NCBI GenBank assembly: GCA_900617105.1
Contig: UYFQ01000001.1
Span: 186,001-250,000 of the forward strand
DNA: 64,000 nucleotides
Source of the DNA: Hydrurus foetidus
Taxonomy: Eukaryota
Direction of reading: 5' to 3'
Part shown: positions 22,798 through 25,457 of the stretch, piece after piece
Layout: each line of letters opens with the position of its first letter
Position numbering within the stretch: position 1 is the first letter of the stretch
Position numbers and translations under genes: made by a program
The notes under the pieces: generated by a model
Seen by the model: only the letters and a program-made list of their open reading frames with translations
Database searches by the model: none
Told to the model about the DNA's origin: nothing

Positions 22798-22838
22798 CCG
22801 GGGTCAGATACCGTCTTGAAAGTCAACAGTTCTGACTG
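22798..22838 (-). mobile_element. Relic right end of a second copy of the IS110 element, with its target half-site
   Basis: 40/41 identical to 23022-23062. Confidence 0.9.
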
Positions 22839-23014
22839 GCTTTGTTGCACAAATACGTTGCAGGCCAAGGTTACCCCAGCCCCAGGCGAGGCTACGCCAC
22901 AGCGACCGTCACAGGACGCCCCAACTTGGTAAAGCGGTTGAGTACCGCCGCTAGCACTTGCAACTCCACGACTTGACTCTTAAAGGTTCGCGCCATGACA
23001 CGTTCGCCCAAACA
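22838..23014 (-). mobile_element. IS5 family (IS903 group) 3' remnant with terminal IR
   Basis: Translates LGERVMARTFKSQVVELQVLAAVLNRFTKLGRP; IS903-like end GGCTTTGTTGCACAAAT at 22838-22854. Confidence 0.8.
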
Positions 23015-23027
23015 CAAGAATCCGGGA

Positions 23028-24113
23028 TCAGATACCGTCTTGAAAGTCAACAGTTCTGACTGAAAATTTGACGGAATCTGCCATCAAGGTGGCGGTATTT
23101 TTAGCCCAGTTTGGATCAAACGGTTTGCGCGTTTTCAAAACGCCGTAGATCAAATGCAGCAATTTATGCATCGCCGCAGCAATGATGGCCTTGGGGGCCA
23201 TGCCTTTTGCTCTCAAGCGCAGCGCCATTTCCTGAACCAGCGGGTTGTAACGAAGTGCCACCATGCCAGGCATGTACAGCGAACGGCGCAAATCCTCATG
23301 CCCACGCCTGCTGATCATGCCGCGCCCCTTTACGCTGGTGCCTGACAGCCGTTGCTGAGGGCATACACCGGCAAAAGCACTGAGGGCCTTTGCACTGGTA
23401 AATCGCTCTACATTGCCCGCATAAGCCATGACTTTGGCAAGCGTCACTGCCCCTATGCCTGGGATACTGGCGAGCAACTGGGCATCACTGTGCAATTGAG
23501 GCTCGCCCGCAATGTGGTCGTCAATGGCCTTTTGCAGTGTCTTGATCGCGGCCTCCAGATAGACCACATGCTCGCGAATGTAGGTCTGCGTTAGCTTGTC
23601 GCCCGTTGCATGAGCTGCTTCCATGCGGTTGACTTCTTGCTGGTGCATGTCTTTGAGCGCTTGCAGCCGCTCTACCAAGCTGCGCAGTTGGCGAATGGCC
23701 ATGCTGGGTGGACACCATGGTTCGGGCGCAAGCGCGGCGCAAAACCGTGCAATCAAGGCGGCGTCTGCTTTGTCAGTTTTGTTCCGTGTCAGCTCGCTTT
23801 GGGCAAATCCCTTCACACGGGCTGGATTGACCACACTGATTCGCCATCCAGCATCACACAGCCAAACGGCCAATGCTTCGCTGTAGGGGCCTGTGGCTTC
23901 TAAACACAGGTGCGCTTGGCTGAGCGTCACGCCATCTTCAAGTAGCCACGCTACAAGTGCTTTGAACCCTGCAACATTGTTACTGAACACCTTGCTTCGA
24001 AACTTCCCATGCCGCAGGCGTGCGACATCAAGTTTGAGCTTGGATACATCGATACCCACATGCACGTCAGTCGTTGCCAAAATGCTTGATTCAGAAGCTT
24101 CGTTACCATTCAT
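23028..24113 (-). CDS. IS110 DEDD recombinase/transposase
   Basis: GIDVSK, LEATG, KTDKADA (DEDD), SIPGIG, SGTSV (catalytic Ser region), LYMP. Confidence 0.97.
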   Translation of the reverse strand: MNGNEASESSILATTDVHVGIDVSKLKLDVARLRHGKFRSKVFSNNVAGFKALVAWLLEDGVTLSQAHLCLEATGPYSEALAVWLCDAGWRISVVNPARVKGFAQSELTRNKTDKADAALIARFCAALAPEPWCPPSMAIRQLRSLVERLQALKDMHQQEVNRMEAAHATGDKLTQTYIREHVVYLEAAIKTLQKAIDDHIAGEPQLHSDAQLLASIPGIGAVTLAKVMAYAGNVERFTSAKALSAFAGVCPQQRLSGTSVKGRGMISRRGHEDLRRSLYMPGMVALRYNPLVQEMALRLRAKGMAPKAIIAAAMHKLLHLIYGVLKTRKPFDPNWAKNTATLMADSVKFSVRTVDFQDGI

Positions 24114-24310
24114 GATCCACCTCGTATGCGGGCTCACCAGCACAAGGCAGCGGCCCAAGTTACCGTTCGATCTTTGATGGAACGAATAATGGATCGGGGG
24201 ACTTATCTGACCCATGAGCTTCAATGCTCAAAGTCTTGCCAGCCTCTCCCGACCCAGCCTGTTCAATCAAACAATTCAAGCTTAACTGCTCGGCAGATTG
24301 AATATACGAG
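23030..24310 (-). mobile_element. Complete IS110 family element (IS621-like) bounded by CT cores
   Basis: Left end CT-CGTATATT, right end ACGGTAT-CT on the minus strand; no TIR or TSD; long non-coding left end. Confidence 0.92.
24114..24296 (-). ncRNA. Predicted bridge RNA (target- and donor-binding loops); ends approximate
   Basis: Guides LTG 24231-24239, RTG 24207-24213, LDG 24158-24166, RDG 24121-24127 match target and donor; each pair is separated by a hairpin. Confidence 0.85.
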
Positions 24311-24548
24311 GTCTTGCAATGACGCATCCACGATGCTGATCTATGCGTCCTGTCCGAAATAACCCCTTAGCCGCTCATTCCTTGGGCGCGACTAGCTACA
24401 GAATAGATAGCATCTAAAGCGTAAAAGCTACCCGCCACCCCTTAGCCGTTGGCTGGGGTTTGGGGGGCCGCAGCTTGCGCAGAGATGGGTCAGTTCTTTC
24501 ATCGCAACATTAAAACCACGCCACTGAATCCCCCTCTAAAATTTCCCC

Positions 24549-25457
24549 ATGCAGTTCCTGAACCCTCGCACCGACTTCGCCTTCAAGAAAATCTTTGGCT
24601 CTGACCACAGCCACGGCATTTTATTGTCGTTCCTGAACGCGGTGCTGGCATTGCCCTCGCCCATAGAGTCCGTCGTCATCCTCGACCCCTACCAAGCCCC
24701 TGCCATCTTGGGCCGTAAAAACACATTCGTCGATGTACGGGCCAAAGACACCACGGGCCGACAGTTCATCATCGAAATGCAGGTACTTAACGTCCCCGAT
24801 ATCGAAAAGCGCGTCCTCCTCAACGCCTGCAAAAGCTACGCCAACCAACTCGCCATTGGTCAAACCTACGCTGCACTCAGCAGCGTCATCGCACTCACCA
24901 TCACCGACTTCATCATGTTCGATGACCAGCCGGACAGGGTGCACCGCATCAAACTGCGCAACGACCACGGCGATACCTACAGCGACGACATCGAACTGGT
25001 CTTTGTAGAACTGCCTAAATTCACCAGCACCGAGGACGAACTCACTACCCTGGCGGACAAATGGCTGTACTTCCTTAAAAATGCCTAAGACCTGCAAGTC
25101 GTCCCCACCGCGCTCCAGAGCGACCCCCAGATCCAGCACGCCTTTGAGATTGCCAACCGCGCTAGCCTGACCAAGGAAGAGGAAGAAGAACAGTTTCAGC
25201 GCGAGATGTACATCGACACCATGCGTCGCTTCATGGCGGCCGTGGAGGCGCAAGAAAGCAGGGAAGTAAAAAGCAAGGCGGAAGGCCTTCATCAAGGAGA
25301 GACGCAGGCTTTGATAAAGCTGCTCGGCAAGCGTTTTGGTGCCATCCCCGCAGACCTGTTAGAAACAATAGAGCACGCCGATCTGACTCAAATCAGTGCG
25401 TGGTTTGACTTGGCGATAGATGCAACCAGCCTGCAGCAGGTATTTGGCGGCGCGTAG
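24549..25457 (+). pseudogene. Rpn family PD-(D/E)XK nuclease with in-frame stop at 25086-25088; C-terminal DUF4351-like ORF 25206-25457 intact
   Basis: TDFAFKKIFG, DVRAKD, IIEMQV, FVELPKF, KWLYFLK; same frame continues after TAA. Confidence 0.88.

What the first reader, a model, noticed from the sequence alone, without database searches (positions are those of the whole stretch)
23028..23050. IS110 recombinase stop codon is supplied by the target; promoter forms only in the circle
Seen: the ORF ends GAC GGT ATC TGA, where T is the core and GA is target DNA specified by the right target guide. In the excised circle the frame would read 49 more codons through the bridge RNA to a TAA inside the left donor guide, at its single mismatch to the donor. 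The circle junction reads TTGACT-17 bp-TATATT, a near-consensus sigma70 promoter. Junction promoters are established for IS110. A longer circle-specific isoform, possibly affecting directionality, is inference.
Basis: partly seen in the sequence, partly recalled or inferred. Interest (0 to 1): 0.7.

Follow-up and report, generated by a model that had tools for sequence, protein, structure and literature searches.

The report
Jumping gene borrows its stop codon
A whole lineage of RNA-guided jumping genes has no stop codon of its own and takes one from the DNA it lands in, so its excised circle would make a longer enzyme, and the reading frame for that predicted extra tail stays open in all 21 relatives examined, which likely means selection maintains it.

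Summary
Confirmed and much more general than one element. This IS621-like IS110 (minus strand, 24310-23030) has a 361-aa recombinase that reads through its right end. Its stop is core T plus target GA, the two bases the right target guide pairs with. The circle junction gives TTGACT-17-TATATT and 49 extra codons.

It is not a private loss. 119 of 120 homologs end in the same register. All 34 DNA right ends read in this frame get a target stop (32 TGA, 2 TAA with matching guide change). They form one clade; sister elements mostly stop on the TGA in their -35 box.

New here: the circle frame is open for 26-56 codons in 21 of 21 left ends, against 6 of 22 controls. All five length classes keep frame; neutral simulation P is 0.0015-0.009. 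The amino-acid sequence is not conserved, and the stop in the donor guide is used in only 3 of 21.

The tail is likely a spacer rather than a domain; a directionality role is unsupported. No circle or transcript was seen. A second right end lies 224 bp downstream. Target-supplied stops are known in IS5/IS481; I found no report for IS110.

The parts
24311..24317 (-). left half of the target site (REP-like repeat), matches the left target guide 7 of 7
24309..24310 (-). left CT core; first element base is 24308
   Evidence: contigs of runs X1, X2, X3, X4, X9, X10, X11 end or leave the window's flank at 24309-24327
24301..24306 (-). -10 box TATATT of the junction promoter (no -35 in the linear form)
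24114..24295 (-). predicted bridge RNA: 5' stem-loop, target-binding loop, donor-binding region
   Evidence: -67.2 kcal/mol, z -2.5; same fold in relatives
24231..24239 (-). left target guide
   Evidence: co-varies with the left flank across relatives
24207..24213 (-). right target guide, complementary to core CT plus the GA that completes the stop
   Evidence: IS621 RTG pairs target positions 8-11 (PMC11208158)
24158..24166 (-). left donor guide; holds the TAA (24162-24160) ending the circle frame in this element
24121..24128 (-). right donor guide
24160..24309 (-). frame that continues the recombinase across the circle junction: 49 codons plus TAA, overlapping the bridge RNA
   Evidence: open 26-56 codons in 21 of 21 left ends
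23028..24113 (-). IS110 recombinase, 361 aa; D22/E72/D114/D117 and S257; residues 346-361 low-confidence in the model
23045..23050 (-). -35 box TTGACT inside the coding tail
23028..23030 (-). stop codon: T of the right core (23031-23030) plus target GA
22838..23011 (-). 3' fragment and end of an IS5-family element
   Evidence: 72% to IS5-family transposase ends; other runs continue it as a different sequence beyond 23011
22800..22838 (-). second right end (core 22807-22806) with a GACCCC flank that matches the right guide perfectly and also spells TGA
   Evidence: the same flank abuts a right end in runs X1 and X2

Best explanation
This IS621-like IS110 element belongs to one clade whose recombinase frame runs through the right end and takes its stop from the core T plus two target bases, so the excised circle would yield a recombinase 26-56 residues longer, and selection likely keeps that frame open as a spacer rather than as a folded domain. 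Inferred history: relatives stop on the TGA inside the -35 box; a frameshift in the low-confidence tail moved the frame, which was tolerated because the programmed target supplies T-GA. The clade has since retargeted its left guide freely, but the first two right-target bases stay GA or AA, and the -35 box lost the A in 22 of 34. Inferred function: on circle transcripts that run round the junction, the ribosome moves through the 5' stem-loop to about the left target guide (12 of 21 stop at or in it). That puts at least 41 residues behind the folded core, enough to clear the exit tunnel, so the nascent recombinase could fold and load the downstream bridge RNA in cis, or the ribosome could shield or remodel that RNA. 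Shown in sequence: stop source, junction promoter, open frame, frame-keeping indels. Not shown: circles, transcripts across the junction, the isoform, its function.
For:: 119 of 120 listed homologs end DGI (116), DGN (2) or GGI (1); of 97 distinct recombinase-adjacent right ends with this donor, 34 are read in this frame and all 34 get a target stop (32 TGA, 2 TAA); 40 stop at the -35 position; 21 stop elsewhere internally; 2 run past the core in another frame; the two TAA cases carry the matching guide change; target-stop rows plus one frameshifted member form one branch (SH-aLRT 94, quick tree, 58 rows); frame open 26-56 codons in 21 of 21 left ends, four of them (L332, L338, L383, L386) found after the pattern was noticed; the other two frames reach 25 codons in 3 of 21 and 1 of 21; same frame in internal-stop elements 6 of 22. 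Core-to-guide distances 59/62/65/74/77 all keep frame, while spacers downstream of the guide take all residues mod 3. Neutral simulations: all other tips stop-free in 5, 14 and 19 of 3400; 5 and 29 of 3400 without the two host-gene cases; 4.25 stops expected by column shuffle, 0 seen. P0153 is a database protein reading QDGI straight into this tail (88% identical); residues 346-361 have pLDDT under 50; no terminator-like site between the -35 box and the core.
Against: One clade means one origin, so 34 of 34 is not 34 independent events. pN/pS in the tail is 0.62-0.89, no lower than in shifted frames (0.70-0.95), so no protein sequence is conserved. The simulation ignores base pairing and rests on a short alignment; four in-frame indels alone give only about 1 in 81. 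Length varies from 26 to 56. P0153's junction follows a solo right end, so it is probably a chromosomal donor-like insertion, not a circle. One contig (run X4, depth 5.6) has a right flank that gives no stop. P0120 ends otherwise; L151 and L173 are frameshifted and L167 has a premature stop. L163 has the same target but stops at the -35 box. IS621 and the -35-stop relatives lack such a tail, so it is not essential. Weak terminator-like sites lie at 23087-23068 and 24292-24277. In this window the distal right end could give a circle without the tail.
Confidence: 0.58

Rival explanations
1. The target-supplied stop is a frozen accident. The circle tail is tolerated junk and the open frame is a by-product of shared ancestry and RNA-structure constraint.
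For: Single origin; no amino-acid constraint beyond other frames; conserved tail residues coincide with the target-loop stem (folds); variable length; low-confidence C-terminus.
Against: The region has about 7.3 substitutions per site of tree length yet no stop; freezing the columns that are at least 80% conserved still gives 19-29 of 3400. RNA structure has no reason to favour multiples of three, and downstream spacers do not show them. Four later-found left ends fit.
Confidence: 0.22
2. The frame is kept open for host genes. The element inserts at host stop codons, takes the stop for its recombinase, and lets the host ORF read into the left end to a replacement stop after the left guide; the circle tail is a by-product.
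For: 24 of 26 hits to the tail profile are unrelated proteins ending in this tail, 21 of the AACCC-target type (GNAT, HD, MAPEG, HNH). L028 and L054 have 244 and 121 open codons upstream in this frame. Because the left guide copies the target in frame, the host's last two residues are restored.
Against: That search can only find in-frame fusions. In the GACCCC-targeting majority the upstream frame is short (100 or more codons in 0 of 17), and only 1 of 12 empty sites ends a long ORF. The stop-free signal holds without L028 and L054. The AACCC pair is nested in the clade. A host gene would gain from a short tail, not a long one.
Confidence: 0.12
3. The circle isoform is a directionality switch: the long form favours insertion and the short form excision, with the donor-guide mismatch kept to supply the stop.
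For: Each DNA form would encode its own isoform; the frame is under apparent constraint.
Against: No conserved peptide. The donor-guide TAA is the stop in 3 of 21 and in frame in 9 of 21; position 7 also mismatches in 7 of 23 internal-stop elements and is mismatch-tolerant in IS621 (PMC11208160). IS621's bias to insertion is explained without isoforms (PMC13626964).
Confidence: 0.08

Closest known systems
IS621 (E. coli) and ISCro4/IS622 bridge recombinases (PDB 8wt6, 9t56; PMC11208160, PMC11208158, PMC13626964, passages or named sections read)
   Same: DEDD plus serine recombinase (E 6e-76; about 46% identity), CT core, left-end bridge RNA with four guides, repeat target, sigma70 promoter formed at the right-left junction.
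   Different: IS621 stops inside the element (TAA followed by non-coding sequence, L147). Here the frame runs through the -35 box and donor, ends on target bases, and continues into the bridge RNA in the circle.
IS110 elements with the same donor that stop on the TGA of their -35 box (40 of 97 right ends)
   Same: Same donor motif and 17-bp junction spacing.
   Different: Frame shifted; diverse right-target bases (stop-forming in 2 of 40); frame past the junction usually closes early.
ISPsp10 (IS5 family, IS427 group; PMC4133298) and ISLxc2/ISLxx4 (IS481 family; PMC2516522), passages read
   Same: Transposase lacks its own stop and takes it from the insertion site.
   Different: DDE transposases using a target duplication; no RNA guide programs the stop; no circle extension is described in the passages read.
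IS900 hed gene (IS110 family; recalled, not retrieved, one search found 0 papers)
   Same: An IS110 ORF said to need host signals, including a termination codon, gained on insertion.
   Different: An antisense ORF, not the recombinase; unverified here.

Membership tests
IS110 family, IS110 group (IS621-like bridge system) | DEDD RuvC-like domain plus Transposase_20 domain with catalytic serine | tested here: met
   Pfam PF01548 and PF02371; D22/E72/D114/D117/S257 align with IS621
IS110 family, IS110 group (IS621-like bridge system) | CT core at both ends | tested here: met
   flanks of other runs diverge just outside the cores
IS110 family, IS110 group (IS621-like bridge system) | Long non-coding left end folding as a bridge RNA with guides matching target and donor | tested here: met
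   left guide matches the left flank at 6-7 of 7 in 16 of 21; right guide co-varies
IS110 family, IS110 group (IS621-like bridge system) | Sigma70 promoter formed at the circle junction | tested here: met
   sequence only: TTGACT-17-TATATT; 17-bp spacing in 35 of 35 complete elements; activity untested
IS110 family, IS110 group (IS621-like bridge system) | Circular intermediate and expressed bridge RNA | tested here: inconclusive
   no joint in contigs of 8 runs; no RNA holder listed
IS110 family, IS110 group (IS621-like bridge system) | RNA-guided recombination activity | not testable with these tools
   several distinct flanks in runs X1 and X2 indicate past mobility
IS1111 group (seekRNA) | Guide RNA downstream of the transposase and sub-terminal inverted repeats | tested here: not met
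   guides lie upstream of the ORF and the ORF reaches the right end
attC-targeting element (only for the AACCC subgroup, L028/L054) | Target is an attC site with both core sites and a hairpin | tested here: inconclusive
   flank fits the recalled RYYYAAC motif, but no distal core site was found in L028 or L054; 2 of 23 empty-motif hits had one

The most novel reading that the evidence does not exclude
A clade of bridge recombinases is two-state at the protein level. The integrated copy makes a short enzyme ended by a stop that its own guide RNA selects in the target; the circle makes a long enzyme whose tail is encoded by the bridge RNA's own DNA, and that tail tethers the nascent enzyme for cis loading or changes its activity. 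The bridge RNA locus would be dual-coding and recombination itself would switch the isoform.
Probability: 0.33. Interest if true: 0.85.

Novelty: new variant of a known kind. Interest (0 to 1): 0.63.

Why it matters
If true, DNA recombination toggles the C-terminus of an RNA-guided recombinase, and a guide RNA doubles as coding sequence, a layer of control not found in the IS110 papers I read. It ties two guide positions to the genetic code (the right target must start GA, AA or AG), which limits natural retargeting. Practically, ortholog screens clone the annotated linear CDS; for this clade the form acting at insertion would be longer, and retargeting in cis would remove the stop. It is testable with one stop-codon mutant.

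Tried and rejected
No whole genome is held. Rfam: 0 hits.

Circles: no joint in contigs of 8 runs; contigs drop rare forms, so this is no evidence of absence.

Second right end: runs X1 and X2 hold both window flanks but have no cover over 22868-23001. This suggests, but does not prove, that the IS5 piece and one right end are strain-specific or an assembly join.

Full-length recombinase plus tail: none among 120 near-length homologs, 26 longer hits or 39 representatives; only the short junction peptide P0153. The profile hits are biased to open frames and were not counted as a test.

Protein-level selection: pN/pS not better than shifted frames. Antisense ORF as the cause: antisense frames stop-free in 7, 10 and 10 of 17, rejected. 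Donor-guide TAA as a designed stop: rejected. The 'TAAinframe' column was miscomputed and replaced.

Low-yield scans: searches (4 loci) gave few or no new left ends. The class-wide sample had 1 true match (G001 itself) in 401 genomes.

The careful tree did not finish; the quick tree is cited.

Literature: searches found no report of a target-derived stop or circle extension for an IS110 recombinase; 'stop' occurs 0 times in the main texts of PMC11208160 and three preprints. No supplements were read, ISfinder was not available, and most subscription papers are not held.

Full report
Observation. The window holds an IS110 recombinase on the minus strand (Pfam DEDD_Tnp_IS110 and Transposase_20; best solved matches IS621 and ISCro4). 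From ATG 24113 it is 361 aa and ends GAC GGT ATC TGA at 23030-23028. CT cores lie at 24310-24309 and 23031-23030. The 195-nt left end folds into a 5' stem-loop and a target loop (z -2.5) and carries four guides matching target and donor. Joining the ends gives TTGACT-17-TATATT and 49 further codons to a TAA in the left donor guide, whose last base is the guide's single mismatch. In IS621 the right target guide pairs target positions 8-11 (PMC11208158, passages), which here are the core and the GA.

One complication. A second right end with a perfect GACCCC flank lies 224 bp downstream, behind an IS5-family 3' fragment. Runs X1 and X2 have that flank abutting a right end and share the window's left flank, so it is probably the original flank. 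Both ends spell TGA. A circle cut at the distal end would retain the stop.

Is it private? No. Of the 120 best homologs listed (of 5462), 119 end in the same register; stop identity is not visible there. In DNA, I classified 97 distinct right ends with this donor lying within 330 nt of an IS110 C-terminus. 34 are read in this frame and all 34 end on T plus target (32 TGA, 2 TAA); none in this frame lacks a stop. 40 stop at the TGA position of the -35 box, 21 elsewhere inside, and 2 run past the core in another frame. Among the 63 others the flank would give a stop in 10, five of which are second ends or broken clade members. The two TAA elements carry the complementary guide change. The target-stop elements form one branch (SH-aLRT 94, quick tree of the 58 longer rows), so this is one origin. 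The -35 box has lost the A of TGA in 22 of 34, as expected once it no longer ends the gene. Against: one contig of run X4 shows a flank without a stop, P0120 ends differently, and L163 shares the target but stops at the -35 box.

The circle frame. In 21 of 21 clade left ends the continuation is open for 26-56 codons; the other two frames reach 25 codons in 3 and 1 of 21, and the same frame in internal-stop elements does so in 6 of 22. Four of the 21 were found after the pattern was noticed. Distances from core to the left guide fall in five classes (59, 62, 65, 74, 77), all in frame, whereas spacers beyond the guide take every residue mod 3. Neutral simulations on the tree left all other tips stop-free in 5-19 of 3400 runs, and in 5 and 29 of 3400 when the two host-gene cases were removed. 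But pN/pS is 0.62-0.89, no lower than in shifted frames: openness is kept, sequence is not. Twelve of 21 stop at or in the left target guide, 6 further on, and only 3 at the donor-guide TAA, which is in frame in 9 of 21. A database protein, P0153, reads QDGI directly into an 88%-identical tail, showing that such junction DNA exists, though probably in a chromosome. No circle joint or RNA run was seen.

A second source of ribosomes. A tail profile found 24 unrelated proteins ending in this tail among 26 hits, 21 from the AACCC-target subgroup. There the element sits on host stop codons, and the left guide restores the last two residues before a new stop. For the repeat-targeting majority, upstream frames are short and 1 of 12 empty sites ends a long ORF, so host read-through does not explain them.

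Mechanism. Shown in sequence: stop source, junction promoter, open and frame-preserving tail. From the literature: junction promoters and circles in IS110 (PMC11208160 and PMC12288879, passages), and read-through transcription supporting excision (PMC13626964, section 5). Inferred: a circle mRNA must cross the junction to reach any stop, so the long form is made. The native tail is low-confidence in the model. In most members the folded core ends 15 codons before the core dinucleotide, so at least 41 residues follow it, more than the 30-40 held in the ribosome tunnel (recalled figure). I favour a spacer that lets the enzyme fold and take the downstream bridge RNA in cis, or a ribosome effect on that RNA, at 0.58 for the whole account; a frozen accident 0.22, host-gene rescue 0.12, a directionality switch 0.08. 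IS621 has no such tail, and its bias to insertion is explained by complex geometry and handshake guides (PMC13626964, abstract and discussion).

Comparison and novelty. It meets the sequence-level features of the IS110 group and not those of IS1111. Target-supplied stops are described for ISPsp10 (PMC4133298, passage) and IS481-family elements (PMC2516522, passages). Ten searches found none for an IS110 recombinase and no circle-specific extension. Also seen: passages of bioRxiv 2024.04.26.591405, 2025.05.14.653916, 2025.10.25.684509, 2026.08.14.744561 and PMC3196728, and the abstract of bioRxiv 2026.08.31.748434. Supplements and ISfinder were not seen and may note the missing stop. Verdict: new variant of a known kind, interest 0.63.

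Noticed in passing
L184:2494 and 2735; L185:2506 and 3135; L157; G187 (11 right-end matches, 1 left-end match): Duplicated or solo right ends, each with its own target flank, recur beside elements of this clade, like the second end in the window.
   Followed up: partly
L028, L054; proteins P0122-P0144: A subgroup with an AACCC right target inserts at host stop codons of short cassette-like genes and gives them a tail of about 27 aa ending in the same two residues; possibly attC-targeting by an IS110-group element (label recalled, test inconclusive).
   Followed up: partly
40 loci: In many IS110 elements with this donor the recombinase stop is the TGA inside the -35 box of the junction promoter.
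   Followed up: partly
L215 (G187:C25, near 93926): A right end is joined to the reverse complement of a bridge RNA's right donor guide, apparently an insertion into another copy's guide by donor-like matching.
   Followed up: no
L129: Two right ends joined head to head at their cores.
   Followed up: no
window 24215: The base two positions 5' of the right target guide differs from all 7 runs that cover it; it may touch the handshake region of this copy.
   Followed up: no
window 24549-25457: Rpn/PD-(D/E)XK nuclease family gene split into two ORFs (PDDEXK_2 and a weak DUF4351 hit).
   Followed up: no
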